A stretch of DNA of 64,000 nt from Candidatus Woesearchaeota archaeon CG10_big_fil_rev_8_21_14_0_10_37_12 (GTDB taxonomy: Archaea > Nanobdellota > Nanobdellia > Woesearchaeales > ARS49), in the NCBI GenBank assembly GCA_002762795.1, contig PCYA01000017.1:801-64800 (forward strand), written 5' to 3'. The notes beneath the pieces were generated by a model that saw nothing but the letters and a program-made list of their open reading frames with translations, was not told where the DNA came from and searched no databases. Shown here in pieces: positions 11,792-64,000 of this stretch (position 1 is the first letter of the stretch; every line of letters starts with the position of its first letter). Made by a program: the position numbers and the translations under genes.

Positions 11792-12949
11792 ATGAGTGGA
11801 GCAGGAACTAGTAGAGGCATATCTCACTATGACCCATATACGGGAAGATATTCTGTAAATGGATCTGAAGGAAAAAGAAATGCTATTATTGGCAAATCTG
11901 GGCCTATGATTGGCCTTTTTTATGTTGTAGATGGACTAGCAAACGGAAATTGTCCTGTCAGGATTCATGGAGAAACAGGCACTGGAAAAGAATCAGTGGC
12001 GCGTGCTTTACATTATAATGGTAAACGTGCTCAGTTCCCTTTCGTTATTGAAAATTGTGGAGGAGTGCCTCCTCAGCTTTTAGAAGATAGACTATTTGGT
12101 CACGTAAAAGGCGCGTTTACAGGTGCAGTCAATTCATATTCTGGAAGTATTGTTAACGCAAATGGAGGCACGCTGTTTTTGGATGAAATTGGTGATATGC
12201 CTCTTGAATTGCAGGGTAAACTTCTTCGTGTGCTTGAAGAACGTGAAGTTGTTCCATTGGGAAGTACAACACCTGTGCCTGTTGATTTTCGTCTTGTTAC
12301 TGCAACACATAGAGATTTAGAAGAATTAACTCGAGAAAGAAGGTTCAGAAAAGATTTGTTTTACCGAATTTCTGGCTGGAACTTAGATGTTCCTTCACTG
12401 AGTGAACGAGAAGATGATGTATTGCAGCTAACAGATTATTTTCTTTCACGATACGCCCCAGATAAAGATATTGCATTATCCAACAAATTAATTCAGGAGT
12501 TGAAGCATCATTCTTGGCCAGGCAACATACGCCAATTGGAATCCGCAGTGCACCGAGCAGTAACAGCGCATTATGGATTTTTTAACTCGCAAAATGATAT
12601 TTTATTAGTTTCTGATTTTGAACCTAACTTTGGTGCACATACAACTCTCGATACAAAACAAACTCCGCGCCTTCACTATCTGAAAGTAGGCGTTGTCTCA
12701 TATTCAGAACTACAACAAATTGATGGCGTCCTTACTGGAAATGCACTCCGTCAAGTTCTTTCTGCGCATGGACAACCAATTTCTCAAAATGGAAACGCAC
12801 CAGAACTCTATGTTGTTACCGAAAGAACACTTCCTTACTTGGTTTCACCACAAGCAGCAAACCGTTCTGCAACAGTAGGAAGACTAGATGTTCTGCTTAC
12901 AGAAAGAGACGCAGTTATACAAGCTTTAAGAACCTCTCTTAATACCTAA
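11792..12949 (+). CDS. sigma-54 interaction (bEBP-type AAA+) domain protein, no receiver or HTH domain
   Basis: Walker A GETGTGKE, ...NCGGVPPQLLEDRLFGHVKGAFTGA with an intact GAFTGA loop, Walker B GGTLFLDEIGDM, Arg fingers, WPGNIRQL; CGT/CTT-rich codon usage unlike neighbours. Confidence 0.85.
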   Translation: MSGAGTSRGISHYDPYTGRYSVNGSEGKRNAIIGKSGPMIGLFYVVDGLANGNCPVRIHGETGTGKESVARALHYNGKRAQFPFVIENCGGVPPQLLEDRLFGHVKGAFTGAVNSYSGSIVNANGGTLFLDEIGDMPLELQGKLLRVLEEREVVPLGSTTPVPVDFRLVTATHRDLEELTRERRFRKDLFYRISGWNLDVPSLSEREDDVLQLTDYFLSRYAPDKDIALSNKLIQELKHHSWPGNIRQLESAVHRAVTAHYGFFNSQNDILLVSDFEPNFGAHTTLDTKQTPRLHYLKVGVVSYSELQQIDGVLTGNALRQVLSAHGQPISQNGNAPELYVVTERTLPYLVSPQAANRSATVGRLDVLLTERDAVIQALRTSLNT

Positions 12950-25332: not shown

Positions 25333-25767
25333 TTATTTAAGACTACCATAGAACTCGCTTGGTCTGTTTGCAGGGCGTTGATGCACACCAGATTTTACTT
25401 GCACATCTTTAACATCTGTAACGCCTGACAAATTTGTAGTAATTTTTGCTGCAAGTTCTCGTGCACGTCTTTCCAAGTCAGTATCGCCTTCAATCGTTAA
25501 AAGAATTTCAGGACTTCTTGATGCACCAGAAGTGTATGTTTTTGCACTATATGCAACTGCTGCTTGATCAACAGCTTGTGCAACAGTATCTAAATATCGT
25601 TGTCTTTCTGTACTTGTTCCTTCAACTTTAAATTCAAGAACAACAGCTCCAACAGGACTTGTTGTTTGTTCAAATGCCCAGTAGCCTTTAAAACCAGTGT
25701 CAGTGTCGTATCTGGTGTCTTTTTGTTCTGTAATCTCTGTTCTTGATAGTCTTGTTGAATTATTCAT
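25333..25767 (-). CDS. hypothetical protein
   Basis: 144 aa; strong SD acggggg upstream; composition looks GC-richer than average. Confidence 0.4.
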   Translation of the reverse strand: MNNSTRLSRTEITEQKDTRYDTDTGFKGYWAFEQTTSPVGAVVLEFKVEGTSTERQRYLDTVAQAVDQAAVAYSAKTYTSGASRSPEILLTIEGDTDLERRARELAAKITTNLSGVTDVKDVQVKSGVHQRPANRPSEFYGSLK

Positions 25768-25834
25768 TTTTACCCCCGTACGGGTTTATAGAATAAAGAA
25801 CTATATAAAGGTTTCTTAAATTGTCACTGGTTAG

Positions 25835-26785
25835 TTAAGAACTTCTTCGGTCGCCGTTGAATCTGCCTGTTGTTTTACCGTATGCTTTTCCAGCAGCAGC
25901 CAACAAACGAGTGGTATATTTTTTTAAACGGCTTGTTTCTGGCTTAATATGCAACGGAATTGGTCTTACTGATTCTCCAACTTCGACGATGCGAACTGCA
26001 TTTCGCTCGTGTTTGGAGTCAAGTAAAGCTTCGTCAGCAGCAGTTCGCAATCCAGCAAACCGCTCAAGCATATACGGTTCATCGCCGTGTTCAATACGGA
26101 TGACATCTTCTGCAGTAGGTTTCCATAATGCAACTCCGACGCTGATTGTAACGGGAATTCTCGCATTTTCTCCATATCTTAAACTATCGTGCTTGAATTC
26201 GTAGCCAGCAACACGTTCAACCAATTGTTTTGCACGATGATATGCGACTTCTGCAGGAGTATTGTACTTAGCCCTTTTTAAATCAATTTGGTCCATCACT
26301 GCAGCAAACTCATCACCGCCAATGTGACCCAGCGCATCACCTTTTCTTGCCCACGCTTCCATGTGTCTACCAAGTCCAATTATTACGTAATCGCCTGCAT
26401 CATGGCCATGATGATCATTAATTTGTTTAAATTTATCTCCGTCGAGAAAAACAACTGCAAGAGGTCTCCTTGTTTTTCTGTATTCTCGCATCCCTCTGCT
26501 TAATGCATTTGGACCAGCAACTTCTTGAAAATAGGTTTTGTTAAACAAGCCAGTCATAGGATCAATAGCAACTCTGCGTTCTAAGGCATAAACTTTTGCT
26601 TCTAAAGCTTCTTTTTGATATTTGAGGAGGTCTCTTTCTGTTGTAACTCTTCGTAAATCGCGTTCAGCAGTGTTAACCCACCAGCTATTAAATTCAGCAA
26701 CATCAGCAAGAGCTATGCGTTCTGCTAAGTGTCTGTCTTCTTTGTTTTGATATGCTTCGTAGGTTTCTTCACCCATTTTCTTCAC
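25835..26785 (-). CDS. GGDEF-domain diguanylate cyclase with N-terminal coiled-coil
   Basis: DPMTGLFNK...RPLAVVFLDGDKFKQINDHHGHDAGDYVI...RKGDALGHIGGDEFAAV: intact GGDEF active site and RxxD I-site five residues upstream; no TM or sensor domain. Confidence 0.85.
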   Translation of the reverse strand: MKKMGEETYEAYQNKEDRHLAERIALADVAEFNSWWVNTAERDLRRVTTERDLLKYQKEALEAKVYALERRVAIDPMTGLFNKTYFQEVAGPNALSRGMREYRKTRRPLAVVFLDGDKFKQINDHHGHDAGDYVIIGLGRHMEAWARKGDALGHIGGDEFAAVMDQIDLKRAKYNTPAEVAYHRAKQLVERVAGYEFKHDSLRYGENARIPVTISVGVALWKPTAEDVIRIEHGDEPYMLERFAGLRTAADEALLDSKHERNAVRIVEVGESVRPIPLHIKPETSRLKKYTTRLLAAAGKAYGKTTGRFNGDRRSS

Positions 26786-27014
26786 TCACTTTATTTGAGA
26801 GTTAGCAGGCTGTTTAAAAAACTTTCGCCATGTTACTACGAATAAGTGATTTTTCTAACATTGTTTCTTTTTTGTTGTTCTTTTGAGTATTCTTTTCCAC
26901 ATTTAAGACTCACTGAACTGTCTTTTATTGAATAAGAATCATCCTCGAAACATTTATAAAAGAAACTGCCTTTAAAAAGCAACGAGCCTGAACAGGGTGA
27001 AAAAAGGGGTATAA

Positions 27015-29030
27015 ATGCACAAGCGGGCACAGCTTACGATATTTATCATCATAGGCATAATTCTTCTTATCAGCATAGCAACAGTTGTCTACTTCACGCA
27101 GAAAAAAGCAACACAACCGCTGGAACACATAAGCCCTGTTCCAGAAGACGTTAAACCAGTTTATGATTACGTAACGACTTGTTTAAATCAAATAAGCAAA
27201 GATGGAATTAACTTGCTTGGAGCACAAGGCGGTCACATAAACATCCCGTCAATAATTGAACGGACACCAACAGCATACATTGCAAATGATCCAGCAGAAA
27301 TATCAAAACTCCCGCACTGGTATTATGAAGGAGAAGACAGAACACCAACGCTGGAATTCATGCAAACAGAGTTATCGAGATATGTTCGTGATAACTTGCC
27401 GGAATGTATTAACAACTTTGCAGCATTTCAACCAAGATATTCTATAAGACCAATCACTAACAGCGTTCCTGTTATAACAATTGCAGACGAAACAGTGCTT
27501 GTGCAACTCAATTGGATCCTTCAAGTTGACACTCCAGAACGAACAACACAAATTGAAACATTCATCACAAACCATCCAGTAAAACTCAAACAAGCATGGC
27601 AGCTTGCAAAAGATGTCATGGAAACAGAAAACAAAGAAGACTGGCTAGAAAACTTAACAATAGATTTCATGAGTGCGAACACAAACATACCAATAAGTGG
27701 AATGGAATTCAGTTGTGGAAGAAAAAGATGGCTGCTCAGTCAAGTAAAAAAAGAATTGCAAGACATGCTTTATTACAATGTTCCATACATAAGACTTGCG
27801 AACACAAATTTGCCCGAACCAATAGAATCAGAAAGAACATATGAAAACTTGAAAAAAGAAAAACAAAAAATTCACAATGATTTGTTGAAAGGAAATCAAC
27901 CAGACTGGCCAGAAGACACGCCAACAGATGCATATGAAATTAACAGAATGACATGGAATACGGGCACGAGAAAAACAGATCTTAAAGCAGCATTTCAATA
28001 CCAGCCGCAATGGACAATGCAATTAAACGCGCAACCAAACTCAGGAAATCAATTAGTAAGCGGTAAATTTCAAGGAGCACGAAAATACCTCAGATTCTTC
28101 TGCATAAATCAGTGGCATTTTACATACGATGTGATTTACCCAATAAAACTTGCAATCAAAGATGAAACTGCATTTTATGGAGATGGCTATTTGTTCCAAA
28201 TGAGCTTCCCTGTTATTATCCAAGATAATGCGCCAAGCAGAGCATACTATGGCCACAGACGATTTGATGATATAATAACAGACGGAGAATTCTGCACTAC
28301 ATTCAGCAACCAACGAGCAGACATCAGAGTCAGAGGTTTGGAAGAAGGCGCAATTTTTGCAGAAGAACTTGAAGAAGTAAACATAAGCTATTCATGCTTT
28401 AATCAATATTGCACATTAGGACAAACACGAGCAGACTCTGCAGGAATCATTCGCTTGCAAACATATCTTCCGCAAGGTTGCGGCAATCCAGTAATTCATG
28501 CAGAAAAAGAAGGTTATATTCCAGCGCAAATACATGCAACAGAAGAAAACGTTGAACTCACACTAACACAACTCAAAAAAATGAATTACACAATCATGGT
28601 TCACCCATACAATCCTGTAACAAACACATGGCTGGACAGTCAGATAACAACTATATCACCGACTAGAGATCCAACAAGAAAAGCAAGTATTGCAGTTATT
28701 GTAAACACAGCAGATTATGAGCAATACTATGAATATCCAAGCCCGCAAAACAATACTCAAGCAGATTTTGTATACGGAGATGCTAGATATGATCTTGATA
28801 TAATTTTGCTTAAAGGCGAAAACCCAATAGGCGGCTATCACGCAGAAAACATCAGCATAACATACGAAGAGGTTGCAGGAATGAATAATGCAATATTCCA
28901 TGTCATAGAATGGCAAGGTGCACTCGACAGAAACTTTGATCCGGTAAACATGTTTGAGTTCATCTACGAAACAGGAATGCACAGAGGCAAACAATACGCA
29001 GAAGTACTCAAACCAACATTCACACCATGA
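27015..29030 (+). CDS. large N-terminally anchored extracellular protein
   Basis: 671 aa, one N-terminal TM helix, many N-glycosylation sequons and paired Cys; stop overlaps the next start (ATGA). Confidence 0.6.
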   Translation: MHKRAQLTIFIIIGIILLISIATVVYFTQKKATQPLEHISPVPEDVKPVYDYVTTCLNQISKDGINLLGAQGGHINIPSIIERTPTAYIANDPAEISKLPHWYYEGEDRTPTLEFMQTELSRYVRDNLPECINNFAAFQPRYSIRPITNSVPVITIADETVLVQLNWILQVDTPERTTQIETFITNHPVKLKQAWQLAKDVMETENKEDWLENLTIDFMSANTNIPISGMEFSCGRKRWLLSQVKKELQDMLYYNVPYIRLANTNLPEPIESERTYENLKKEKQKIHNDLLKGNQPDWPEDTPTDAYEINRMTWNTGTRKTDLKAAFQYQPQWTMQLNAQPNSGNQLVSGKFQGARKYLRFFCINQWHFTYDVIYPIKLAIKDETAFYGDGYLFQMSFPVIIQDNAPSRAYYGHRRFDDIITDGEFCTTFSNQRADIRVRGLEEGAIFAEELEEVNISYSCFNQYCTLGQTRADSAGIIRLQTYLPQGCGNPVIHAEKEGYIPAQIHATEENVELTLTQLKKMNYTIMVHPYNPVTNTWLDSQITTISPTRDPTRKASIAVIVNTADYEQYYEYPSPQNNTQADFVYGDARYDLDIILLKGENPIGGYHAENISITYEEVAGMNNAIFHVIEWQGALDRNFDPVNMFEFIYETGMHRGKQYAEVLKPTFTP

Positions 29031-32000
29031 AACAAACAAAATTATTGCTATTCATTTTTATTTTGCTAGCAACGCTTGTAAACGCGCAAGAAATAAACAT
29101 AACAAACGTGAATGTTAATCACACAAACCAAACAAGTGTTATCACATGGCAAACACAGCCAGCAGCAACAAGCCTTCTTCAATACGGCATTAATAATCTT
29201 GCACAAAACGCATCAGACAACAACGTAACAGTGCAACATAGAATAGAAATACCAACAACGCCAGGAGAAACATACCAGTACATCATTACAAGCTGTGCAA
29301 ACCAAAACTGCACAAGCATGCAACCAGCAACATTCACTGCAGGAAACTTCTTTGTCACAGCAGACATACCAACACATGTACGAACAGCAAATATTGATAT
29401 TACAGGAAGAACACAATCAGGAGCAACAATAAGATTAATACTTAACGGAAGAGACTTGCGAACATTAACCACGCAAACAAATACATTCTTGTTCCGAGAT
29501 ATTCAGCTCGACTCATCTAATAATACAATCATTATCCGCGCAACATCAGCAACAGGAGAAACAACACAAAAAAACTATCCTGTACGACTTGATAACTCTC
29601 CAGCAAGAGTATCAATAAACACAACTGCATTCACAACAGAAAAACCAGCACCATTGCGAATAGTAACTTCAGAGCCAGTACAATTGAACATCACAATACA
29701 ACAACTGGATGATGGAAATGAAACAAAAGAAGTGCAACATAATATCACTCTCGCAGGAACAATACAAATTCCAGTAGAATTATACGATGGAAGAAACAGG
29801 ATCAGCATTATTGCAACAGATTATGCAGGATTCACAACACACACAGAAACAGAAATTTATTATGATTTTGGACCGCCACAATTCTTAGAAACAAACCTTA
29901 ACCAATTAACGCCAAGCTACAGCAGATTAATACGCGTAAAAGGAACACTCAGCGAACCAGCAAGCGTGACAGTATTTCTCAACAATGAACCAGAAGAAAC
30001 AGTACAAACAGACAGCAACAATAAGTTCAACATACCAATAAACCTCAAACAATTCGCACAACTTGACAGAAGCCAAGCACCAAACAGAACAACATTGGAA
30101 ACAGGACTAGCATGGCGAAACAACATAAGATTAGAAGCAATAGATGCAGCAGGAAGAATAACAGCAATACAAGGAGATGTTGTTTACGCAAGCTGTTCAC
30201 AAGATGGACTCATAGATGTTGTTGTAACAGAGCCGCTGCCAGACATACTGAACACAAGATTATTAGTGGAAGGATTGCAGCAAGTCGGATTGTCGTTTAA
30301 CTACAGTTACAGAGGAGATCAGGAAGCAATCATCAGACCAGCAGACATAAGAATGCATAAACTCACACCAGGACAGGCATTCCAAAATGAATATGACAAC
30401 GCGCTCGCTACAGTTGCAAAACCAGGAGTAAAAGCAGCAAGCCAAACAGACGGCATAGGATATATCCAAGTAAACTTCAACTCCATAGAAGATCCATGGG
30501 CATTACCAGAAACAGGAAACGCGCCGCAAGCAACAGAACCTCCTTCAAATAATCCAACACTGTTTGACAAAGAAGATAGACTATCAGATCATAGAAAAGG
30601 AGACTGCTTGCTTCCGGGCTTTGGATGCATGCGAATTCTACTACAAATAGAAATACCATACCAAGAAAGCAGCGCAAGATATTACACAGGATCACAAAGA
30701 ACAACAACACAAACAGGGCAACAACCATTAGCACAAGATCTTGTTGACCTAAATGAACGCGTGCACAGAACATGCTTACCAATAGAAGTAGCAATAGACA
30801 GAAGAATACCTCCAGAAAAACTCGGAAGCAGTTTCCTGAACCACACATCAAGAGTTCTTGGCGAAATTGTAGAGAACATAGACAAAGTACTCAAACCAGT
30901 GGAAAATGTTGGACGATTCTTGTTCTACTCCTGTCTTGCAAGCACAGGATTAATGTACTTGCCAAGCCTAAACGAAAGATGGACGTGCAAATACAGCAAC
31001 GCTGTAAACTTATTTAACAGAGACCTAGACGAATCAGCAACATTCAATGAGGGAGTTGCTGCAATAGGAAAATGTGAAGATTTCTACACAGGAGAAGCAC
31101 TTGAAAACTGCAAATCGTGCAGCGAAGCAAAAACAACATTCAACAATTACAAATACTATTACCAGCAAATCTGCGACAGAGTAATGTGCGGAGCAGCACC
31201 AAGCTTACAAACTTACTTGCGAGTAAAAGGACGAACAACACTCGAAAAAATAGAAGGATCAGGATATGAAGCAGGAAGCGACTGTGCAATGTGGATGAAA
31301 GAAAAAGGCAAAATCGGCACAGGAAAAAGAGGAGCAGTTATTTTTTCGTATCAGGAAATAGAAGGAATATACAAAGACTGGTTGGAACACCAAAGTGATG
31401 ATGCAGATGACACAGGATTTTCAGGGGAAGTGAACTGTGCAGGGTTGCACCCAGCTGACGCAAGCTGTTGCGGATATGAATACATGCAGGAATGGAGCAG
31501 CGCTTGCGGAGTAAGCATAGGTGGTGGAGGTCTTGACTTATTCGATGAAATTAAAGAAAGCACATGCTTGAGTGCGCAAAACGCAAACAAAAATGAAATA
31601 CCGGGAGCAGGAGACACAACGATACAATGCAGCAGATTAACAAATGCTCTCAGTGGATTCTGTGATGCAAATGGAGGACCGCCACTAGAACCAATACGAG
31701 TTATGCACTTTGAAGGCGGAGACTCAGGAGTAACAGGCAAAGTACGCCAATTAGGATTAGCAACTAACAAGGAAAAATTCATGTACGTCCTAATAAAAGA
31801 AAATACAGGAGGGCAAACACAAGAAAAGCACTCAATAATGCTTGGATTTGTAGCTGAGAAAGTAAAATACGCACAAACACCGCAATCAGCAACATTTGCA
31901 GAAGAAGATATATTCAGCATTAATACGCAAACAGAAGCAAGAGTTATGCCTGGAGGGTATGAGCTACAACAACAATTCTTCAGAGAAGAACAAACAGCAG

Positions 32001-35000
32001 CTTATTATCAAGGACAGCTTGATGATAACTTTTACACACAATTCGGCAACTATCTTTGTAACCAAGCAGGATATTCTGGACTGCCTTGCCAAGATGGAGA
32101 CTTTACACGAGATGATGCCAAAGACGTTTACGCAAGAGTCATGCAATACATTGGAGATCCAGAACAAGAATACATTGTCAACCCAAGCTCTGGAGTAATA
32201 AATGCAGCACGATGCTTGTGCTTCCCAACACTCATTAGCTTCCTAAAAACTTGGAGGAATATACTGCAAGCAGTGCAAAACTGCGTTAACAGCATAATAT
32301 TAACAGGAGACGGAGATGCAGGAATCTGCCAAGAAGGAGTAACAATACCAATGTGCGATTTGTTATACGATGCAATTGCGTGTTTCACACAACGATTCGG
32401 AGCAGGAGGAGGACGAATAGGACTAGGAGGAGGAGATCCAATAGGAGCTCTCACCAGCGCAGGGGCACAAGTATCACGAACAGTAGAAAGCAGATACGGT
32501 ACGACAAACATGTATCAGGCAACATTCGGAGACAGAAAACTTGTGCATAGCATTTGTTTGTTTGCATTCACAGGAACATGGAACCTTGATCCTTCTGCAT
32601 TATTTGACCAAGCACTCGAAGACGTTCCAACAGAAAGTTATACATTGTTGTATCCTTGTCAGAGAAGGTACGTAAGCTATGATCCTACAACAACACCGGG
32701 AGGTTTAGTAACATGGGTGTACAATTTCGGTGCAGGAATAGCAGCAGGAGCAAACTTAGACGTAGACTTTAAACTCAAATGCAGTGCAGACAGAAGTTGT
32801 CTTCCATCAGAAGGTTTTGAAGGCGGCAAGTGTGATTGTGAAGAATCAGGACAAGAAAAATACTTGCCAATCAGACCACAAGGAACACCAACAAGAGTAG
32901 CAAAAGGAGAAATTTTCAATCAACCAGTGTACTTCACGTTAAAGGGTAATCCAAGAGATGGTTCAACAAGATATGATACGTTAATTATGACTCACAGATG
33001 GAGAGATCAAGGGAAAATAGCAGAAAAACAAACAGAATGCAAAATAGGCCAGGCAGGAGGACCGTTAAGCGTGCCTCCGCATTGTAAATTTGACGCGGCA
33101 ACATTAAGCTTTAGGTGCATGCTTGGAGAAGACGAAGGAGCAATCAGTTTATTGGGCTCAACAGTAGATGCACAGCACAACATACCAAACCCGGCATTTG
33201 CATTAGGAGAAGAACTCAACATTACGCTCGATGTAAGGCAAGCATACCCAAGACAAGACGCAATGTTCAACAAATATTTGGAGTACGCAGTCATGAATTC
33301 AGCAGGGCAAACAGTTGCAACAAATAAAGACGAAGCACTGCATCCCTTGACAACAAACGGCGATTACAAAATAAGAACAACAAACAGAGGAATATTCAGA
33401 ACACAATTAACTGTTACAGAAGACTGGTTCGGAACGCAGCAACAAACAGGCAGAAATTACCAGACAAGCACATGGAACAAAAATGAGCCTAGTGTGTTGT
33501 CGCCAAATGATGAAGGATTAATCGCAGATGTTTTGTTAACAGATGCTACAGGAAATACAAAAACAGAACAATCAGCGTTTGTTATCGAATTTTCCAATGA
33601 AAATGACCAAACAACATGGAAACTATTTGATGGAGGATCAAGAAGAAAATCAGCAGCAGGAATACAAAAAGGAAACCAATTAACAGGAGGAGTGTATAAC
33701 CCAACAACCACAATCATCTTCTATCAGGGAACAACAGCACAATCACAAATTGTCAGAGATCCAAATGCACCAGCAGGAGTACGAGTTGTACAAAGTGCAA
33801 ACGCAAATATCAGAATAACATTCAACAATATGCCTGTGCTTGCGCCAGGAGAACGAAAACAAATCTTAGTAGAATGGCAAAAACAACCAGAACTCGGAGC
33901 ATGCACTGACGAAACAAAAAGACAACAACCACAAAGATTCACCATAACATTCTCAGCATTTGATGCTGACGAAAACGGAAACCCAAGCAACCAAGTAAGC
34001 GTAGATCCAAACACAGGAACACCAGCACAATTGCAAGTACCATTTTTTGCAGTATGTTCAGAACCTTCAGCAATTGCACATTTGGAAACAGCAAACAATG
34101 AAACAATGATCAAACAATTCATGAGAGACATCCACGACGAATTTGGAAAAGCAAAAATAGAACAACAAGAATATCTTACAAGAATTGATGCATTTTTAGC
34201 ATCATCATACCCATTAGATACTCAGCAAGGAAAAGGAGATGTAGTATCAAGATTAGAGGCATTATTAACATATGAATCATTACATTACAACAAAATACAA
34301 GGATTTGTTAATAGACTAACAAGCTTGCCTACAGAGAACAGAATAGCAGGAGTTGATGAATTTGAAACACTTCTGAACAGATATAATGTTGAATTAGGAG
34401 TTGCAATTAGAGTAATCAGAGGAATGAAAGATGACATCAGACAAAGCAGTTTAAGACAAGAAATAGGACCAGCATTACTAGAGATTAAAACAAAACTTAC
34501 AGAATTAATGCAGACTAAAGACCAAGCAATACAGGCAACACAAGAAATAATCTTATTCAGACCAACAACTACAACACAACAATTAAGCCAAAGAGACCCA
34601 GCAACAACACCTTTGTTAGCAAATGATAGGAAAATATTGGAAGAAATAAAAAGATTGATTGAACGTCATCAACAAATAACTCCCATTTCCGCAAAAAATA
34701 GTCAAATAATAGAAATAAATAGGCTTTTCAACTATACTTTTACAGGTGTCACTGTTGAGTATGTTTATAACTTTATTAAAGCAATTAATATAACACAAAC
34801 CACACATTCTCAAACATATAGTGGGCACATAGGCAGACTTTCTTCAGAAGAACGAACAACCAGCATAGTTCAACTTGAAATAGAACTCATGCAATTCTTA
34901 ACACATACAAGATCAGTGCTGCCAAACCTTCAATTAACTGCGTATAAACAACAATTACAACAAATAAATTCAAGTTTCACACAAATCACACAAGCAGAAG

Positions 35001-35830
35001 ACGCAGTGCTAGCATACATTACTCAAAGATTAACAGCGCCAGAAGCGCAAGTAACAGCACAACCAACAATAGACGCGTCAACAAAAGAAGGACAATTGCA
35101 AGCACTCAAAACAGCAATAGAAACAGCAAGACGTGATCGAGAACCTTATTTGCTTACTTTCCAAGATTATGTAACTAATCCAGCAACAATGCCAAATGAT
35201 CATGTACAATTTAGAAATAGTTACGCGAGAGCGCAACAAGTAGAAATACAAAACATGCAAGCATTAGAAACAATACAAATAAATCAATTACCAGACATAA
35301 TTAAACAAGACGTAGAATTGCTTAAGTTCAATATGGGAACAATTACAACAGGAAGTATTGGCAGGTTTATACAGAACATACAAAGTGCTGATTTGCAACA
35401 ACTTAAGAGTCAAGTTCCTGAAATGCACCAGAAATATCAGCTAATAACTGGCCAAGAAGATAGCATTCTCAGACAAATAGACCAAGAACTCAGTTCTTCT
35501 GGATCGGGTGGAGCAGCAGGACCACCACAAGTTCAAACACCTCCGGCACAACCACAACAAACAACACTAGAAGATCAACAAAAACTTGGTGCACTCAAAA
35601 TCATCATTGAAGCAAACCAACAAATAAGAACTAATCACAAACAAAGAATAACAACATATCTCCCGGCACTTGCACCTGGAAATAAAGAAACAGTCAGAAA
35701 CCTAATACGAGCAATACAAGAAACAGAAAGCAGATACGCGAGAAATGTTGAATTAGCTCATATTGGGTTGTCCAGTCAAGAGTTAAGAGCAATACCACAA
35801 CTTGCAGCATTAAAATTCACAACAGACTAA
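29027..35830 (+). CDS. giant secreted surface protein (2267 aa): sequon-rich N-terminus, Cys-rich middle, Gln-rich coiled-coil C-terminal third
   Basis: Signal peptide MKQTKLLLFIFILLATLVNAQE, >60 NxS/T sequons, dense Cys clusters between aa 600-1300, Q-rich heptad-like region aa 1550-2260. Confidence 0.7.
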   Translation: MKQTKLLLFIFILLATLVNAQEINITNVNVNHTNQTSVITWQTQPAATSLLQYGINNLAQNASDNNVTVQHRIEIPTTPGETYQYIITSCANQNCTSMQPATFTAGNFFVTADIPTHVRTANIDITGRTQSGATIRLILNGRDLRTLTTQTNTFLFRDIQLDSSNNTIIIRATSATGETTQKNYPVRLDNSPARVSINTTAFTTEKPAPLRIVTSEPVQLNITIQQLDDGNETKEVQHNITLAGTIQIPVELYDGRNRISIIATDYAGFTTHTETEIYYDFGPPQFLETNLNQLTPSYSRLIRVKGTLSEPASVTVFLNNEPEETVQTDSNNKFNIPINLKQFAQLDRSQAPNRTTLETGLAWRNNIRLEAIDAAGRITAIQGDVVYASCSQDGLIDVVVTEPLPDILNTRLLVEGLQQVGLSFNYSYRGDQEAIIRPADIRMHKLTPGQAFQNEYDNALATVAKPGVKAASQTDGIGYIQVNFNSIEDPWALPETGNAPQATEPPSNNPTLFDKEDRLSDHRKGDCLLPGFGCMRILLQIEIPYQESSARYYTGSQRTTTQTGQQPLAQDLVDLNERVHRTCLPIEVAIDRRIPPEKLGSSFLNHTSRVLGEIVENIDKVLKPVENVGRFLFYSCLASTGLMYLPSLNERWTCKYSNAVNLFNRDLDESATFNEGVAAIGKCEDFYTGEALENCKSCSEAKTTFNNYKYYYQQICDRVMCGAAPSLQTYLRVKGRTTLEKIEGSGYEAGSDCAMWMKEKGKIGTGKRGAVIFSYQEIEGIYKDWLEHQSDDADDTGFSGEVNCAGLHPADASCCGYEYMQEWSSACGVSIGGGGLDLFDEIKESTCLSAQNANKNEIPGAGDTTIQCSRLTNALSGFCDANGGPPLEPIRVMHFEGGDSGVTGKVRQLGLATNKEKFMYVLIKENTGGQTQEKHSIMLGFVAEKVKYAQTPQSATFAEEDIFSINTQTEARVMPGGYELQQQFFREEQTAAYYQGQLDDNFYTQFGNYLCNQAGYSGLPCQDGDFTRDDAKDVYARVMQYIGDPEQEYIVNPSSGVINAARCLCFPTLISFLKTWRNILQAVQNCVNSIILTGDGDAGICQEGVTIPMCDLLYDAIACFTQRFGAGGGRIGLGGGDPIGALTSAGAQVSRTVESRYGTTNMYQATFGDRKLVHSICLFAFTGTWNLDPSALFDQALEDVPTESYTLLYPCQRRYVSYDPTTTPGGLVTWVYNFGAGIAAGANLDVDFKLKCSADRSCLPSEGFEGGKCDCEESGQEKYLPIRPQGTPTRVAKGEIFNQPVYFTLKGNPRDGSTRYDTLIMTHRWRDQGKIAEKQTECKIGQAGGPLSVPPHCKFDAATLSFRCMLGEDEGAISLLGSTVDAQHNIPNPAFALGEELNITLDVRQAYPRQDAMFNKYLEYAVMNSAGQTVATNKDEALHPLTTNGDYKIRTTNRGIFRTQLTVTEDWFGTQQQTGRNYQTSTWNKNEPSVLSPNDEGLIADVLLTDATGNTKTEQSAFVIEFSNENDQTTWKLFDGGSRRKSAAGIQKGNQLTGGVYNPTTTIIFYQGTTAQSQIVRDPNAPAGVRVVQSANANIRITFNNMPVLAPGERKQILVEWQKQPELGACTDETKRQQPQRFTITFSAFDADENGNPSNQVSVDPNTGTPAQLQVPFFAVCSEPSAIAHLETANNETMIKQFMRDIHDEFGKAKIEQQEYLTRIDAFLASSYPLDTQQGKGDVVSRLEALLTYESLHYNKIQGFVNRLTSLPTENRIAGVDEFETLLNRYNVELGVAIRVIRGMKDDIRQSSLRQEIGPALLEIKTKLTELMQTKDQAIQATQEIILFRPTTTTQQLSQRDPATTPLLANDRKILEEIKRLIERHQQITPISAKNSQIIEINRLFNYTFTGVTVEYVYNFIKAINITQTTHSQTYSGHIGRLSSEERTTSIVQLEIELMQFLTHTRSVLPNLQLTAYKQQLQQINSSFTQITQAEDAVLAYITQRLTAPEAQVTAQPTIDASTKEGQLQALKTAIETARRDREPYLLTFQDYVTNPATMPNDHVQFRNSYARAQQVEIQNMQALETIQINQLPDIIKQDVELLKFNMGTITTGSIGRFIQNIQSADLQQLKSQVPEMHQKYQLITGQEDSILRQIDQELSSSGSGGAAGPPQVQTPPAQPQQTTLEDQQKLGALKIIIEANQQIRTNHKQRITTYLPALAPGNKETVRNLIRAIQETESRYARNVELAHIGLSSQELRAIPQLAALKFTTD

Positions 35831-36073
35831 TTTAATGAAGCAAACATTCAAAACAATCAATATCTTATTCACGAAACACAAACAAGAATTAGTACTCCTC
35901 CAAGTCAACTAACTCCAGAACTGCTCAGAACTACATTAAACAAAATAAATCAATATTGCACGGCTGTTGAAAGAATAGAAACAACATTATTACAACAAAT
36001 AAATCAAAAATTACCTACACAAGCACAACCACCAGCACAATCACAACAAGACCACGTAGCGGATATACGGCTG

Positions 36074-36526
36074 GTGGGACAATATGTGGTTGATAATGGG
36101 CGTAGAATCCAATACGCAAGTAGTGTTGATTACACATTTGATTTGCTCATTAAGAAAGACGATGTGACTTACTCGTTTAGTGTCTCATTTAATGCTAGGC
36201 AGGATTACACTCCGGACATAGCGAAAATTGAAGCAGGAGTTCTTGTTGGTCGAGTGCACTATGTTTCCGTTAGGGATGGTAAACTTGATGGTCTTTTCTC
36301 AACAAATGAGCCAATGGACGAGCTTGCTAATTTCTGGGATGGCTGGCCTGATACAACAAATTTCGATGAAGCCGTTTTAATTGATAAAAATTCACCAGAA
36401 AGTAAGAAAAATGAAGCAAGACAACAATATGCTCGATTCATGAATGAAATAGCAGAGTTAATACGAACAGGAGATTTGGTCGTAACTGAAACAGAGTCGC
36501 ATAAAATAGCTGCGCTTCCAGAATAA
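36074..36526 (+). CDS. hypothetical globular domain; probably the C-terminal extension of the giant protein, same frame
   Basis: GTG-initiated ORF; the 243 bp between the giant gene's TAA (35828-35830) and 36074 are open in the same frame, have no ATG/GTG/TTG, and encode Q-rich sequence like the giant protein's C-terminus. Confidence 0.4.
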   Translation: MGQYVVDNGRRIQYASSVDYTFDLLIKKDDVTYSFSVSFNARQDYTPDIAKIEAGVLVGRVHYVSVRDGKLDGLFSTNEPMDELANFWDGWPDTTNFDEAVLIDKNSPESKKNEARQQYARFMNEIAELIRTGDLVVTETESHKIAALPE

Positions 36527-36610: not shown

Positions 36611-37168
36611 TTGGCACATATGGTTCAAAAAAGAAACAATGTTGAGTTGGAAATTATAGATCTATTGTTTAAAAAAGAGAATCATGTCAGAGGAATATCT
36701 AAAAAACTAAATGAATCTCATTCTACAATATCGAGAAAATTAAACTATCTTAAAGATGAAAACGCGATTGATTATGTGCGGGAAGGAAAAAATAAGGTGT
36801 TTTTTCTGAAAAAAAACATCGTTGCACAAAGTTACATTCTAACCTCAGAAATACACAAACTAATAAAATTATTGAGAATATGCCCAGAATTAAGCGTTAT
36901 TTTTGAAGAAATGCTAAATAAAACAGATGAAAAATTAATCATTCTTTTCGGATCCTACGCAAAAGGGCTTGCTAAAAAAGACAGCGATATAGATGTTTAT
37001 ATTGAGACAAAAAACAAAACCGTTAAAAAAATTGTTGAGGATATAAATTCAAAAATCAGTGTTAAAATTGGTACATTCGATATTGACTCTCCGCTCGTTA
37101 AGGAAATAATAAAAGATCACATAATTATCAGAGGAGTTGAAAAATTTTATGAAAAACAATTTTCTTGA
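36611..37168 (+). CDS. winged-HTH fused to a minimal nucleotidyltransferase (MNT antitoxin-like)
   Basis: N-terminal wHTH (HVRGISKKLNESHSTISRKLNYL), then LFGSYAKGLAKKDSDIDVYIE = GSx9-10DxD Pol-beta NTase motif. Confidence 0.7.
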   Translation: MAHMVQKRNNVELEIIDLLFKKENHVRGISKKLNESHSTISRKLNYLKDENAIDYVREGKNKVFFLKKNIVAQSYILTSEIHKLIKLLRICPELSVIFEEMLNKTDEKLIILFGSYAKGLAKKDSDIDVYIETKNKTVKKIVEDINSKISVKIGTFDIDSPLVKEIIKDHIIIRGVEKFYEKQFS

Positions 37169-37628
37169 AAAACTAAAAAAAGAAGAAAAACTAGAACTGA
37201 TCGACCCTTCAGAGAACATCCATGATTCTTACTTGGAAAAATCCAATAACTGTATGAAAGCAGCAAAATTATTGTTGCAAAACAAATTATATGAGAACTC
37301 TATCGGGATGTCTTATTATGCGATGTATGACTTGCTTGTAGCATTATTATTCAGAGTAGGAATTAAATGCGAGAATCACTCAGCAGCAATTCTATTGCTC
37401 AAATCACTATTTGAAAATGATGAATTGTTTAAACTTATTTCGAATGCAAAAAAAGAAAGAATTGATAAACAATATTATATAACGACTGAAAAAGATACTG
37501 TGACTGAAGAAATAGCAAAAGAATTATTAACTCATGCGGAATACTTTGTTTTAAATCTGAAATCAATTATTGCCAGATTAAAAAACGAGGATGTTCCTAA
37601 AATCAGAGAAAAATTCAAAACATTATAA
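37137..37628 (+). CDS. HEPN-domain protein (toxin-like partner of the MNT)
   Basis: All-helical 163 aa; overlaps the MNT gene by 32 nt; HEPN-MNT gene order; Rx4-6H not clearly assignable. Confidence 0.55.
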   Translation: MKNFMKNNFLEKLKKEEKLELIDPSENIHDSYLEKSNNCMKAAKLLLQNKLYENSIGMSYYAMYDLLVALLFRVGIKCENHSAAILLLKSLFENDELFKLISNAKKERIDKQYYITTEKDTVTEEIAKELLTHAEYFVLNLKSIIARLKNEDVPKIREKFKTL

Positions 37629-37638
37629 CACTGGAAAA

Positions 37639-37690
37639 ATGATCCTTACAAAAACCTTACCAAACGCGTGGAATTTGTTTGTTAAACACA
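37639..37690 (+). repeat. direct repeat 2 (52 bp) matching 36528-36576
   Basis: atgatccttacaaaaaccttaccaaacgcgtggaatttgtttgttaaacaca. Confidence 0.6.
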
Positions 37691-38448
37691 AGCAATACCT
37701 TATATTATTTGTATTGTTAGACTTTGTCTTTTTGTTCTTTACAGCACAAGCCCATTTAACTTATTTTATTCCGACAGCAGATGCGGCAAACAGAGCAGGA
37801 GAAATTATCACGCAAGAACTGCAAACACTGCAAATGACAGATGCATACCAACTGGACGCTATTCTAATGCAAAATTCGCAGTTTAAACAAGCATATCATG
37901 ACTTATTGCAAGGCATAATTTACTTTTTTATCACCATGTTTATCATCTGGATAGTTATCAGGTCAGCAATCTGGCACATCAGCTACAAAATAATTCATAA
38001 AAAAACAAACTGGAAAACAAACGTGCTCAAATTTGCACTGTTTAGCCTTTTTTGGTTTGTTGTTGTTGCAATCGTGTTCGTTCTTTACAGTATATCAACA
38101 GGAAGCACAGCAACATTGTTACCAATAGTTGGAAATCCGTTAATTAGCATATTGATGATTGCTCTGTTTGTTCTAATTTATTATTTCAGTCAGATAAGTT
38201 TTGCTCTTGTGCCGGTACAACAAAGTTTTAATAAGACCTTTGCTTACGGAGTAAAATATGCCAAGAAATTTGTTCCAGTGGCACTTATAAATGCAATAAT
38301 TGTGTTCCTTGCACTCAGTCTGCCACTTAACTGGCTGCAAACATACCCAATAATATCACTTGCAATAATCATAATCATCAGCATACCAGCACTCGCATTT
38401 GCACGAGTGCATATAATCGGAGCAACAGAATGGGTAAAAAAATATTAA
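37639..38448 (+). CDS. polytopic membrane protein
   Basis: Start set at ATG 37639 (MILTKTLPNAWNLF), since this N-terminus is what is duplicated at 36528; ORF track extends to 37591; 6 TM helices. Confidence 0.5.
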   Translation: MILTKTLPNAWNLFVKHKQYLILFVLLDFVFLFFTAQAHLTYFIPTADAANRAGEIITQELQTLQMTDAYQLDAILMQNSQFKQAYHDLLQGIIYFFITMFIIWIVIRSAIWHISYKIIHKKTNWKTNVLKFALFSLFWFVVVAIVFVLYSISTGSTATLLPIVGNPLISILMIALFVLIYYFSQISFALVPVQQSFNKTFAYGVKYAKKFVPVALINAIIVFLALSLPLNWLQTYPIISLAIIIIISIPALAFARVHIIGATEWVKKY

Positions 38449-39104
38449 TAGCACTTGTTTGTCTGGTAATAATAGTTATTTTATTACTTCTTGCACTGCA
38501 ATATCCAGTTATACAACAAACAAAAACAGTGCAGACAACACCACAACAATATCCTGAACAACAGGAAATGGTTGAACAAGAACAACTATTAGAATTACCA
38601 ACTGAATTGGAGATACCAACGCCAAGAAGCCCTGCACTGGAAACAAGACCGGCAGCAACACCAAAAGCACCGGAGCCAGAACTATCACCGACAGGAGTTT
38701 CAATAGACAAAGTATTCCCACAAACAGTGCAGTTCTGGGTAAATACAATCAAAGTACCTGACACTACAGGTGCAACTGAGTACACGTACAATTACATTCC
38801 GGTACAAGCAAGAGAACTCAAAACATTTGCCGGAAGTTTCGGACCATATGCAGAAGACCCAATAGAACACATAATAATACTTCTTTGTGCAGAACTTACA
38901 AAAATAACAGCAGCACCATCATGTCAGCCAGTCAACATTGTATTCAGAGATGGTTATGTGAGCTTTGCAAAAGGCTACCAATATGACGAATATATTGGTG
39001 GGATGGCTGCAAAAGATTATACGGCTTACTATGAAATACACTTAAAAGAAACAGACACAATCATCAGAACAAGCAACAAAGCGTTTGTGAGAACAGTTAA
39101 TTAA
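38430..39104 (+). CDS. secreted protein with Pro/Glu/Gln-rich linker
   Basis: N-terminal TM/signal, PEQQEMVEQEQLLELPTELEIPTPRSP linker, ~120-aa C-terminal domain. Confidence 0.45.
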   Translation: MGKKILIALVCLVIIVILLLLALQYPVIQQTKTVQTTPQQYPEQQEMVEQEQLLELPTELEIPTPRSPALETRPAATPKAPEPELSPTGVSIDKVFPQTVQFWVNTIKVPDTTGATEYTYNYIPVQARELKTFAGSFGPYAEDPIEHIIILLCAELTKITAAPSCQPVNIVFRDGYVSFAKGYQYDEYIGGMAAKDYTAYYEIHLKETDTIIRTSNKAFVRTVN

Positions 39105-63736: not shown

Positions 63737-63757
63737 TTAATTCAAAGTTGCCTTTAC

Positions 63758-63852
63758 GGACCGTAGGGGCTTCGAACCCCCGACCACTCGGTATCTGTCT
63801 TGAGTATATCAAGCTAAGAGCCGAGTGCTCTACCAGACTGAGCTAACGGTCC
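63758..63852 (-). tRNA. tRNA-Lys(CUU) with a 22-nt intron at the canonical 37/38 position
   Basis: Reverse complement GGACCGT-TA-GCTC-AGTCTGGTA-GAGC-A-CTCGG-CUCUUA-[GCTTGATATACTCAAGACAGAT]-A-CCGAG-TGGTC-GGGGG-TTCGAAG-CCCCT-ACGGTCC gives a perfect 7-bp acceptor, D, anticodon and T stems, U33, anticodon CUU; no encoded CCA. Confidence 0.8.
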
Positions 63853-64000
63853 AATATAAAGAAAAACAAGCGTTTCTTTTAAATATCTTGCGCAGTTATT
63901 TCCTTAACTTTTTAATTTGCAATCTAAAAAATTTCTTTACTTCTTTCACAACAGAATCTGTACTTGCAAAGAAGTCAAACAAACTTCCTATGAAAAGTGT

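What the first reader, a model, noticed from the sequence alone, without database searches (positions are those of the whole stretch)
27015..36526. Giant surface-protein locus: 671-aa anchored protein translationally coupled to a 2267-aa secreted protein with a Cys-rich core and a ~700-aa Gln-rich coiled-coil stalk
Two genes with an ATGA overlap occupy about 9.5 kb. The large product has a signal peptide, more than 60 N-glycosylation sequons and dense cysteine clusters. Its C-terminal third is a long glutamine-rich heptad region. No known domain is recognisable by eye. Proteins of this size and architecture are characteristic of episymbiotic DPANN archaea, where they are proposed to mediate host attachment. 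This is the largest uncharacterised investment in the window.
Basis: partly seen in the sequence, partly recalled or inferred. Interest (0 to 1): 0.55.

Follow-up and report, generated by a model that had tools for sequence, protein, structure and literature searches.

The report
Woesearchaeal giant envelope-protein gene pair
Two coupled genes of an uncultured DPANN (Woesearchaeota) archaeon encode a membrane-held 671-residue protein and a 2267-residue secreted cysteine-rich protein; they belong to a larger gene cluster kept across this lineage, whose proteins match nothing known and which probably builds a cell-surface structure.

Summary
The two ORFs (27015-29030, 671 aa; 29027-35830, 2267 aa) and their ATGA overlap are real. 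The DNA is identical in three assemblies and has no tandem repeats. The window comes from a Candidatus Woesearchaeota MAG, so the DPANN guess is right.

Two details are wrong. The large protein has 19 N-glycosylation sequons, which is chance level, not more than 60. The Gln-rich tail is 583 aa with only a weak heptad signal, and it varies greatly among homologues.

New findings:
- The pair is the second half of a conserved same-strand cluster, g1-g2-g3-g4-A-B-F-G, made of two paralogous modules. This window lacks g1-g4.
- The small protein's N-terminus, [KR][GA]-Q-[ILV]-T-x-F-I-I-x-G, is nearly invariant. It matches EppA-type prepilin (class III) processing sites.
- The large protein's core defines a family of 617 cluster representatives. 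Every named one is Woesearchaeota or Nanoarchaeota.
- Pfam, NCBIfam, PHROGs, PDB sequence/profile searches and Foldseek gave no informative match.
- A single in-frame TAA separates the large ORF from 231 further sense codons.

Best reading: a lineage-specific surface complex with a conserved body and a variable outer end. Its function, including host attachment, is untested.

The parts
26946..26960 (+). BRE/TATA-like promoter element (CGAAAC-A-TTTATAAA), 55-69 nt upstream of the start of A. An SD-like GGGGT follows at 27006-27010.
   Evidence: Read directly from the sequence. The assignment to archaeal promoter consensus is my inference, not a tool result.
27015..29030 (+). Gene A, 671 aa. It belongs to a Woesearchaeota-wide family (36-53% identity) with 8 invariant Cys.
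   Evidence: AlphaFold2 model with pLDDT 91.8.
27015..27095 (+). N-terminus of A, residues 1-27 (MHKRA|QLTIFIIIGIILLISIATVVYF). This is a class III (prepilin)-like signal: basic residues, then [GA], then invariant Q, T, F, I, I, G.
   Evidence: Q, T, F and the first I in 77 of 78 sequences; the second I and G in 78 of 78. A FlaFind-like regex matches 75 of 78. The same motif occurs in the paralogue A'. M. maripaludis EppA substrates are processed at RAQI/KGQV/KGQL/KGQI (PMC4371748).
27144..28274 (+). Alpha/beta 'head' of A, residues ~44-420, with no fold match. It carries motifs LGxQGGYI and NQWHFxYDVIYPV.
28302..29027 (+). Tandem beta-sandwich (Ig / CnaB / CarboxypepD_reg-like) domains of A, residues ~430-671.
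   Evidence: secondary structure. Searches gave only generic tandem-sandwich matches, with TM-score normalised to the query below 0.2.
29027..29030 (+). ATGA overlap: the start codon of B overlaps the stop codon of A. No SD-like sequence lies upstream.
   Evidence: The same 4-nt overlap occurs in 5 of 6 related loci, and in the paralogous pair g1/g2.
29027..35830 (+). Gene B, 2267 aa, a secreted giant protein.
29027..29086 (+). Sec-type signal peptide of B, residues 1-20, with predicted cleavage after VNA.
   Evidence: hydropathy. The cleavage site is my reading of the sequence.
29087..30163 (+). N-terminal Ig-like / FN3-like region of B, residues ~21-379. It holds 11 of the 19 sequons.
   Evidence: sub-threshold Cadherin-like, Glucodextran_B and Big_13 hits; hhalign links it to the g2 family at 93.8%. 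NCBI names some homologues 'fibronectin type III domain-containing'.
30164..33226 (+). Conserved Cys-rich core of B, residues ~380-1400. Motifs include HRxGDC, CDRVMCPAAPS, HPAxPxCCGYEYMQEWSSACG, CxCFPTxI..L..WRNI, TGDGxAGxCQ and DRKLVHSxCMFAFTGTW.
   Evidence: The AF2 model is only moderate (pLDDT 64). No PDB match.
33227..34078 (+). Less conserved, largely beta region of B, residues ~1400-1684. It ends in the conserved junction motif FDADxxGxPSxQVSVDPxTG...PFFAVC (~residues 1640-1678).
34079..35827 (+). Variable C-terminal module of B, residues 1685-2267. Here it is Gln-rich (11.3%), Cys-free and probably helical, with a weak heptad signal.
   Evidence: The tails of homologues are 155-874 aa, with Gln 0.6-11% and 0-30 Cys.
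35828..36526 (+). The single in-frame TAA (35828-35830), followed by 231 sense codons in B's frame. The first 81 codons form a Gln-rich spacer with no start codon; ORF 'C' follows (36074..36526, 150 aa, no known domain).
   Evidence: translation; codon-position composition of the spacer equals that of the B tail; the stop is identical in three assemblies. TAA is the commonest stop in the window, and 232 stop-free codons are unlikely by chance.
36611..37628 (+). MntA-like nucleotidyltransferase plus HEPN toxin-antitoxin pair. It is an insertion between B and F and not part of the system.
   Evidence: The same insertion occurs in L001/L002/L008. In L004-L007, B overlaps F directly.
37591..38448 (+). 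Gene F (g7), 285 aa, a polytopic membrane protein with 6-7 TM segments. It is a conserved cluster member and a distant paralogue of g4.
   Evidence: (hhalign 94.8% over 229 columns).
38430..39104 (+). Gene G (g8), 224 aa, with an N-terminal TM segment and an extracellular domain. It is a conserved cluster member.

Best explanation
A and B are the core of module 2 of a Woesearchaeota-specific, two-module cell-envelope gene cluster, g1(A')-g2-g3-g4-A-B-F-G.

Proposed mechanism:
1. A and B are made in a fixed ratio from one transcript by termination-reinitiation at the ATGA overlap. This step is inferred.
2. B is exported by the Sec pathway, loses a 20-residue signal peptide, and folds outside the cell into a body stabilised by many disulfides. 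The export signal is shown; the folding is inferred.
3. A is inserted through a prepilin-type N-terminal helix. That helix is probably cut after [KR][GA] by a prepilin peptidase encoded elsewhere. The helix stays in the membrane or packs with other A/A' helices, as in the Sulfolobus bindosome.
4. The head and beta-sandwich stalk of A hold B at the cell surface, together with the membrane proteins F and G. This step is inferred.
5. The conserved N-terminal ~1680 residues of B form the structural body. The hypervariable C-terminal module, here a Gln-rich helical region, is the outward-facing, fast-evolving part that contacts the environment or a partner cell. This step is inferred.
6. In this genome the cluster has been split (g1-g4 are not in the window), a toxin-antitoxin pair has been inserted behind B, and B's reading frame is cut by one TAA about 231 codons before its probable ancestral end.
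For: Topology:
- A has one N-terminal TM helix. B has a Sec signal peptide and no other TM segment.

Coupling:
- The 4-nt overlap occurs here and in 5 of 6 annotated related loci. The paralogous pair g1/g2 shows the same overlap, and B overlaps F in 4 loci.

Conservation:
- The gene order is kept in every locus with enough upstream flank, except L013 and the window.
- Three components are paralogous between the modules. A' and A give BLAST E-values from 1e-9 to 1e-42 at 22-28% identity. g4 and F give hhalign 94.8%. g2 and B share the Ig-like region at 93.8% and a local Cys-helix block.

Prepilin-like signal:
- The motif is invariant across 78 A sequences and all A' sequences, although the rest of these proteins is only about 25% identical.
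- The processing-site tetrapeptides are identical to those of EppA substrates. The bindosome is a precedent for large non-pilin proteins with class III signals (PMC4371748).

Structure of A:
- The confident model shows an N-terminal helix, a head and three beta-sandwiches.

Body versus tail of B:
- The conservation profile and tail comparison show a conserved body and a hypervariable tail after a conserved junction motif.

Family size and range:
- The B core matches 617 cluster representatives, 311 of them below E = 1e-30. All named ones are Woesearchaeota or Nanoarchaeota.
Against: - There is no direct evidence that A binds B, and none for surface location, expression or any contact with a host.
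- No PilB, PilC or prepilin peptidase gene lies in the window or within 10 kb of the cluster in the related loci.
- Position +5 of the putative mature A is Phe, not the Glu of EppA substrates. No Pfam or NCBIfam class III signal model matches.
- The AF2 model of the B core is poor (pLDDT 64, pTM 0.33), so its fold is unknown.
Confidence: 0.45

Rival explanations
1. S-layer-type lattice. B (and g2) would be the outer canopy protein and A (and A') the membrane stalk, by analogy with SlaA/SlaB of Sulfolobales. The cluster would encode the main cell wall of Woesearchaeota rather than an adhesin.
For: - The operon pairs a large secreted protein carrying Ig-like domains with a smaller anchored protein carrying beta-sandwich domains.
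- The cluster is present throughout the lineage and lies next to housekeeping genes such as S6e and NOG1.
- It takes up a large share of a small genome.
- No S-layer protein has been experimentally determined for any DPANN archaeon; only candidates have been proposed, and known archaeal S-layer proteins share little sequence (10.1101/2023.10.27.564410).
Against: - The B core is 34-48% identical across a phylum-level clade, whereas S-layer proteins usually diverge beyond recognition above genus level.
- B has 40 Cys and a hypervariable tail, which is atypical for S-layer proteins.
- A is anchored at its N-terminus by a pilin-like helix, not by a C-terminal TM segment with a coiled coil as in SlaB.
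- The polytopic partners g4 and F have no counterpart in S-layer systems.
- No S-layer family matches.
Confidence: 0.2
2. A true type IV pilus-like fibre. A and A' would be polymerising (minor or tip) pilins assembled by a PilB/PilC machine encoded elsewhere. B would be a PilY1-like tip adhesin carried out on the fibre.
For: - A and A' carry a prepilin-type N-terminus with +1 Gln.
- Large adhesin-like proteins accompany archaeal type IV pilus loci (PMC4858521).
- Modular pilins with grafted domains exist (PMC8179133, listed).
- Pili-like appendages connect ultrasmall groundwater cells to hosts (PMC7906910).
Against: - No ATPase, platform or peptidase gene lies near any of the fetched cluster loci or in the window.
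- No small major pilin with the same motif was seen in about 450 kb of loci.
- A's 640-residue ectodomain is very bulky for a repeating subunit.
- +5 Glu is absent.
Confidence: 0.15
3. A polymorphic effector or toxin-delivery protein. B's conserved body would present or deliver a variable C-terminal effector cassette, Rhs/CdiA-like. The in-frame piece behind the TAA would be a displaced old cassette.
For: - B has a conserved body, a conserved junction motif and a hypervariable C-terminus that falls into discrete types among homologues.
- Coding-like in-frame DNA follows the stop.
Against: - No toxin, RHS/YD, haemagglutinin-repeat or immunity domain was detected.
- The tails are 155-874 aa and many are Cys-rich or helical, unlike known compact toxin domains.
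- No small conserved immunity-like gene follows B; in L004-L007 the next gene is F, and it overlaps B.
Confidence: 0.08
4. An artefact or a dead gene: a mis-assembled repeat region, or a pseudogene no longer in use.
For: One in-frame TAA truncates the long reading frame. The cluster is rearranged in this genome.
Against: - Three assemblies give identical sequence, and there are no tandem repeats.
- B has 2267 uninterrupted codons, and every conserved motif and Cys of the family is intact.
- A, F and G are intact.
Confidence: 0.03

Closest known systems
[quoted passage not shown]
   Same: These are large globular extracellular proteins, several times the size of a pilin. They carry a prepilin-type N-terminus and are held in the cell envelope rather than forming a long fibre.
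   Different: Bindosome subunits are homologous to solute-binding proteins and depend on the bas operon's PilB/PilC homologues. A has no such homology, and no such genes lie nearby. A also has a giant secreted partner.
Methanococcus maripaludis Epd pilins processed by EppA (PMC4371748)
   Same: The processing-site tetrapeptides (RAQI, KGQV, KGQL, KGQI) are identical to those of the A family, including the +1 Gln that EppA requires.
   Different: Epd pilins are small and have Glu at +5. A is 671 aa with Phe at +5. No Pfam or NCBIfam class III signal model matched A.
SlaA/SlaB two-component S-layer of Sulfolobales
   Same: One operon encodes a large secreted protein rich in Ig-like domains and a smaller membrane-anchored protein with beta-sandwich domains that could hold it.
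   Different: There is no sequence or fold match. A's anchor is N-terminal. B's core is Cys-rich and strongly conserved. Extra polytopic membrane proteins and a duplicated module are present.
Large adhesin-like proteins of archaeal type IV pilus loci, and modular type IV pilins (PMC4858521; PMC8179133)
   Same: Large secreted or pilin-fused proteins with conserved cysteines are associated with pilin-like components and are proposed to act as adhesins.
   Different: Those lie inside loci that contain the secretion ATPase and platform genes. This cluster does not. DUF2341 / PilY1 domains are absent.
Other giant DPANN proteins: SPEARE proteins of Nanohaloarchaeota (from my own knowledge), and the lytic-transglycosylase giant family fam00969 of Woesearchaeota/Pacearchaeota (PMC8204110)
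   Same: These are very large extracellular proteins of small-genome DPANN archaea, proposed to mediate cell-cell interaction.
   Different: B has none of their defining domains: no protease, restriction endonuclease or SLT domain. It is a separate family.

Membership tests
Class III (prepilin-type) signal peptide / type IV pilin-like proteins | Short basic N-terminus, then [KR][GA] directly before a hydrophobic stretch of about 20 residues | tested here: met
   The window protein starts MHKRA|QLTIFIIIGIILLISIATVVYF. A FlaFind-like regex matches 75 of 78 family members.
Class III (prepilin-type) signal peptide / type IV pilin-like proteins | The N-terminal helix is far better conserved than the rest of the protein across divergent paralogues | tested here: met
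   Q, T, F, I, I and G are invariant or nearly so in A (77-78 of 78) and are also present in A'. A and A' are only 22-28% identical overall.
Class III (prepilin-type) signal peptide / type IV pilin-like proteins | EppA-type site: Gln at +1 and Glu at +5 | tested here: inconclusive
   Gln at +1 is present in 77 of 78. Position +5 is an invariant Phe, not Glu (criteria from PMC4371748).
Class III (prepilin-type) signal peptide / type IV pilin-like proteins | Match to curated class III signal or pilin models | tested here: not met
   A has no Pfam or NCBIfam hit at E <= 1 and E <= 0.1 respectively.
Class III (prepilin-type) signal peptide / type IV pilin-like proteins | Linked PilB-type ATPase, PilC-type platform or A24 peptidase gene | tested here: not met
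   None in the ORFs of the 64-kb window that were scanned. None in the 10-kb flanks of 6 annotated loci. F and g4 lack the two-Asp / GxGD signature and any A24 peptidase match.
Class III (prepilin-type) signal peptide / type IV pilin-like proteins | Cleavage by a prepilin peptidase | not testable with these tools
   This needs N-terminal proteomics or a cleavage assay.
Archaeal S-layer proteins (SlaA/SlaB type or other known families) | Sequence or profile similarity to a known S-layer family | tested here: not met
   Nothing was found in Pfam, NCBIfam, or PDB sequence and profile searches.
Archaeal S-layer proteins (SlaA/SlaB type or other known families) | Operon of a large secreted canopy protein plus a membrane-anchored stalk protein with a C-terminal TM segment and coiled coil | tested here: inconclusive
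   The large-secreted plus small-anchored pairing is present. However, A's anchor is N-terminal and A has no coiled coil.
Archaeal S-layer proteins (SlaA/SlaB type or other known families) | Very high expression and a 2-D lattice | not testable with these tools
   There are no expression or imaging data for this organism.
PGF-CTERM / archaeosortase-anchored surface glycoproteins | C-terminal PGF motif, TM helix and basic tail | tested here: not met
   B ends ...AIPQLAALKFTTD and has no C-terminal hydrophobic segment.
Giant SLT-domain proteins of Woesearchaeota/Pacearchaeota (fam00969, PMC8204110) | Murein-like lytic transglycosylase domain | tested here: not met
   B has no SLT hit.
Polymorphic toxin systems (Rhs / CdiA-like) | Conserved body, junction motif and hypervariable C-terminal cassette | tested here: met
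   Conservation collapses right after the ...DPxTG...PFNAxCA motif at about residue 1678. The tails differ in length and composition.
Polymorphic toxin systems (Rhs / CdiA-like) | RHS/YD or FHA repeats, a recognisable toxin domain, and an adjacent immunity gene | tested here: not met
   No such Pfam, NCBIfam or PHROGs hits. In most loci the next gene is the conserved membrane protein F.
Long coiled-coil stalk proteins | Continuous heptad periodicity over hundreds of residues | tested here: not met
   The register changes every few heptads and Pro/Gly-free runs are at most 38 aa. The mean a/d score is reached by 17 of 500 shuffles; the count of strong windows is reached by 193 of 500.

The most novel reading that the evidence does not exclude
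The eight-gene, two-module cluster would encode a previously undescribed kind of archaeal envelope machine. In it, pilin-like anchored proteins (A, A') and dedicated polytopic membrane proteins (g4, F) would display giant disulfide-rich proteins (g2, B). These have swappable distal modules and would serve as the Woesearchaeota apparatus for contacting partner cells, independent of any known pilus, S-layer or secretion system.
Probability: 0.2. Interest if true: 0.8.

Novelty: new variant of a known kind. Interest (0 to 1): 0.55.

Why it matters
Woesearchaeota are among the most widespread uncultured archaea. How their cells are built, and whether and how they attach to partners, is unknown. 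This work turns one 'large hypothetical protein' into a defined, lineage-wide set of 8-9 co-oriented genes. The set has clear topology predictions, a candidate processing signal, a conserved body and a variable outer end. That gives concrete targets for metaproteomics, antibody or cryo-ET labelling and structure prediction, and a marker family for the clade. If the variable tail tracks partner identity, it could be used to predict hosts from genomes.

Tried and rejected
- Domain libraries: Pfam, NCBIfam and PHROGs on A, B, C, F, G and on the g2, g4 and F families gave nothing beyond weak Ig-like hits.
- PDB by sequence and by profile: nothing.
- Viral origin: no relatives of A or B in IMG/VR.
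- F or g4 as the missing prepilin peptidase: rejected. There is no conserved Asp pair and no A24 match.
- Internal repeats in the tail: none at E <= 0.05. No DNA tandem repeats.
- Long coiled coil: not supported.
- Global TAA reassignment: rejected. TAA ends 25 of 44 ORFs.
- Assembly error at the TAA: rejected. It is identical in three assemblies.
- Locating g0-g4 of this organism: no hit in the window. A metagenome scan returned no contig from its samples, so this remains unresolved.
- g2 as a full-length paralogue of B: only the Ig-like region and one Cys-helix block align.
- Literature searches: no description of this cluster was found.

Full report
**1. What is in the sequence**

Two + strand ORFs are exactly as described. 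A is 27015..29030 (671 aa) and B is 29027..35830 (2267 aa); B's ATG overlaps A's TGA (ATGA). A BRE/TATA-like element (CGAAAC-A-TTTATAAA, 26946-26960) and an SD-like GGGGT (27006-27010) precede A. Nothing SD-like precedes B. This fits one transcript with termination-reinitiation; the promoter assignment is my inference.

A has a single N-terminal hydrophobic helix. B has a Sec-type signal peptide (cleavage after VNA20 is my reading) and no other hydrophobic segment.

B has 40 Cys, 35 of them between residues 527 and 1364. Eleven of the 19 lie in the first 300 residues.

The tail (residues 1685-2267, 583 aa) is Gln-rich (11.3% against 6.4% elsewhere) and Cys-free. Pro or Gly interrupts it at least every 38 residues. 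Its heptad signal is marginal: 17 of 500 shuffles reach the mean score, and the number of strong windows is not above shuffles. 'Gln-rich, probably helical variable module' describes it better than 'coiled-coil stalk'.

The locus is not an artefact. There are no tandem repeats in the genes. A JGI and a Logan assembly match the window with 0 mismatches over 11-15 kb.

**2. Organism and families**

The proteins are COV18_05900 and COV18_05905 of 'Candidatus Woesearchaeota archaeon CG10_big_fil_rev_8_21_14_0'. The neighbouring genes are archaeal housekeeping genes: FttA, proteasome, aminoacyl-tRNA synthetases, FtsZ, exosome and SBDS.

A has more than 140 homologues at 35-54% identity, none of them annotated.

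The first search with full-length B was swamped by its low-complexity tail. Its core alone retrieved 16 full-length relatives. A profile of the core found 617 representatives of 50%-identity clusters, 311 of them below E = 1e-30. Their lengths range from 660 to 3355 aa. Every one that carries a source name is Woesearchaeota or Nanoarchaeota.

Conservation is highest over residues ~280-880 and ~1040-1360. It drops after ~1400 and collapses after the motif ...DPxTG...PFNAxCA at about residue 1678. Homologues' tails are 155-874 aa, with Gln 0.6-11% and 0-30 Cys.

**3. Genomic context elsewhere**

In six annotated contigs, A and B lie in a same-strand run of mostly overlapping genes:
- g0, about 300 aa
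- g1 = A', about 715 aa
- g2, about 1030 aa, with a signal peptide and about 30 Cys
- g3, variable and secreted
- g4, about 290 aa, with 6-9 TM segments
- A
- B
- F, about 270 aa, with 6-7 TM segments
- G, about 200 aa, with an N-terminal TM segment

tblastn on further loci from GTDB genomes shows the same order wherever enough flank is present, except in L013 and the window.

The cluster is a duplicated module:
- A' and A are paralogues (22-28% identity, E from 1e-9 to 1e-42).
- g4 and F are distant paralogues (hhalign 94.8%, 229 columns).
- g2 and B share an Ig-like region (93.8%) and a local Cys-helix block, S..C.C.P..I..L...R.I...C.

In the window only A, B, F (37591..38448) and G (38430..39104) are present. 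Upstream lie a GGDEF gene and a 144-aa ORF on the other strand. NOG1, which flanks the cluster in L005/L006, lies 22 kb away on the opposite strand, so this genome has been rearranged. A MntA/HEPN toxin-antitoxin pair is inserted between B and F, as in L001 and L008. I could not find where, or whether, g0-g4 exist in this organism.

**4. The N-terminus of A**

Across 78 A sequences, residues 3-14 read [KR][KR][GA]-Q-[ILV]-T-[ILV]-F-I-I-[IL]-G. Q, T, F and the first I occur in 77 of 78 sequences; the second I and G occur in all 78. A' proteins have the same motif. A plain signal anchor would not stay about 80% identical between paralogues that are about 25% identical elsewhere. This pattern is the hallmark of type IV pilin-like proteins.

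The predicted processing tetrapeptides (RAQL here; KGQI, KGQV, KGQL and RAQV in relatives) are the same as those of the EppA-processed Epd pilins of M. maripaludis, for which Gln at +1 is required. The S. solfataricus bindosome shows that large non-pilin proteins can use such signals (PMC4371748).

Evidence against:
- Position +5 is Phe, not Glu.
- No curated class III signal model matches.
- No ATPase, platform or peptidase gene is linked to the cluster.
- No small pilin with this motif was seen in the loci in hand.

**5. Structures**

AlphaFold2 gives a confident model of A (pLDDT 91.8). It shows helix 3-33, an alpha/beta head at ~44-420 and beta-sandwiches at ~430-670. Foldseek against PDB and BFVD matches only the tandem sandwiches, and only generically (TIE protein, SpaA pilin, phage baseplate and fibre proteins; TM-score normalised to the query below 0.2). 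The head has no match.

**6. The stop codon**

ORF 'C' (36074..36526) is in B's frame. Between B's TAA (35828-35830) and C's stop there are 231 sense codons and no further stop. The first 81 of these contain no ATG, GTG or TTG. They are Gln-rich like the tail. Their codon-position composition is that of the tail: A at positions 1/2/3 is 0.38/0.41/0.58, against 0.37/0.36/0.57 in the tail.

TAA is the commonest stop in the window (25 of 44 ORFs). A stop-free run of 232 codons is improbable by chance (1.5e-5 from trinucleotide frequency). The stop is identical in three assemblies.

Three readings remain open: a recent nonsense truncation of a protein of about 2499 aa, leaky read-through, or separate initiation of C. 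C has no relatives in the loci in hand and no known domain.

**7. Interpretation**

All components are membrane-bound or extracytoplasmic. The pairs A'/g2 and A/B are translationally coupled. The set is conserved across a phylum-level clade and lies next to housekeeping genes. B has a conserved body and a hypervariable outer end.

The best-supported reading is a lineage-specific surface complex in which pilin-like A, together with F and G, holds secreted B, and B's tail is the exposed, fast-evolving part (confidence 0.45). The topology, the coupling geometry, the conservation, the paralogy and the motif are shown. The A-B binding, the processing of A, the disulfides, the orientation of the tail and any role in partner contact are inferred.

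Rivals are an S-layer-like canopy and stalk (0.2), a true pilus with a tip adhesin (0.15), a polymorphic effector (0.08) and an artefact or pseudogene (0.03).

**8. Comparison and novelty**

The locus works most like a bindosome-type or SlaA/SlaB-type anchored envelope assembly. It is not a member of any tested family (see the membership table). It is also distinct from the other DPANN giant proteins: the SLT family fam00969 (PMC8204110) and the SPEARE proteins (from my own knowledge).

Literature searches found no description of the cluster. I rate it a new variant of a known kind: anchored giant surface-protein assemblies of archaea. There is a 0.2 chance that it is a categorically new envelope machine. 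I score interest at 0.55. The locus is real, lineage-defining and wholly uncharacterised, and it has testable features. Its function rests on inference, and the organisms are uncultured.

Noticed in passing
window 35828-36526: A single in-frame TAA separates B from 231 further sense codons, which include the 150-aa ORF at 36074..36526. The 81-codon spacer has no start codon and has the same codon-position composition as B's tail. The stop is identical in three assemblies.
   Followed up: partly
window 25333-26785 (- strand): A GGDEF diguanylate-cyclase domain protein (Pfam E = 2.5e-25) and a 144-aa ORF of unknown function. Local GC reaches 0.45 against about 0.36 nearby. This is a bacterial-type signalling gene in a DPANN archaeon, and it sits where g0-g4 lie in related genomes.
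   Followed up: no
window 36611-37628: A MntA-like nucleotidyltransferase (with an N-terminal HTH) plus a HEPN toxin-antitoxin pair, inserted between B and F. A related pair occupies the same position in L001/L002/L008.
   Followed up: partly
window 4434-5477 (- strand) versus L005 20136-21116 and L006 21811-22022: The NOG1-type GTPase is the immediate downstream neighbour of the cluster in relatives. Here it lies 22 kb upstream on the opposite strand. This suggests an inversion or rearrangement that split the cluster. A tyrosine integrase gene lies at 688-1494.
   Followed up: partly
window 11792-12949: A sigma-54-interaction-domain AAA+ protein (Pfam E = 4e-59). This is a bacterial-type regulator that is unusual in archaea.
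   Followed up: no
window 63756-63853 (- strand): A 96-98-nt tRNA (Rfam 53.9 bits) that ARAGORN cannot assign ('anticodon ctta at position 36'). It probably contains an intron.
   Followed up: no
window 33944-34060 (B residues ~1640-1678): A conserved junction motif, FDADxxGxPSxQVSVDPxTG...PFFAVC, lies immediately before the hypervariable tail in all full-length homologues. It could mark a recombination or processing boundary.
   Followed up: partly
L013 4210 (- strand) and L014 177 (- strand): Further, shorter genes (about 300 aa in L013) carry the same KKGQITVFII N-terminal motif outside the main cluster. The motif therefore defines a small superfamily rather than only A and A'.
   Followed up: no
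window 10476-11714: A 412-aa protein with Big_9 / PKD Ig-like domains. It is another predicted surface protein in the window.
   Followed up: no
B residues 1093-1202 (window ~32303-32632): One of the best conserved stretches of the family (TGDGxAGxCQ..., DRKLVHSxCMFAFTGTW) is predicted by AlphaFold2 with pLDDT below 45. The reason could be the shallow alignment, an oligomer interface or a conformational switch.
   Followed up: no
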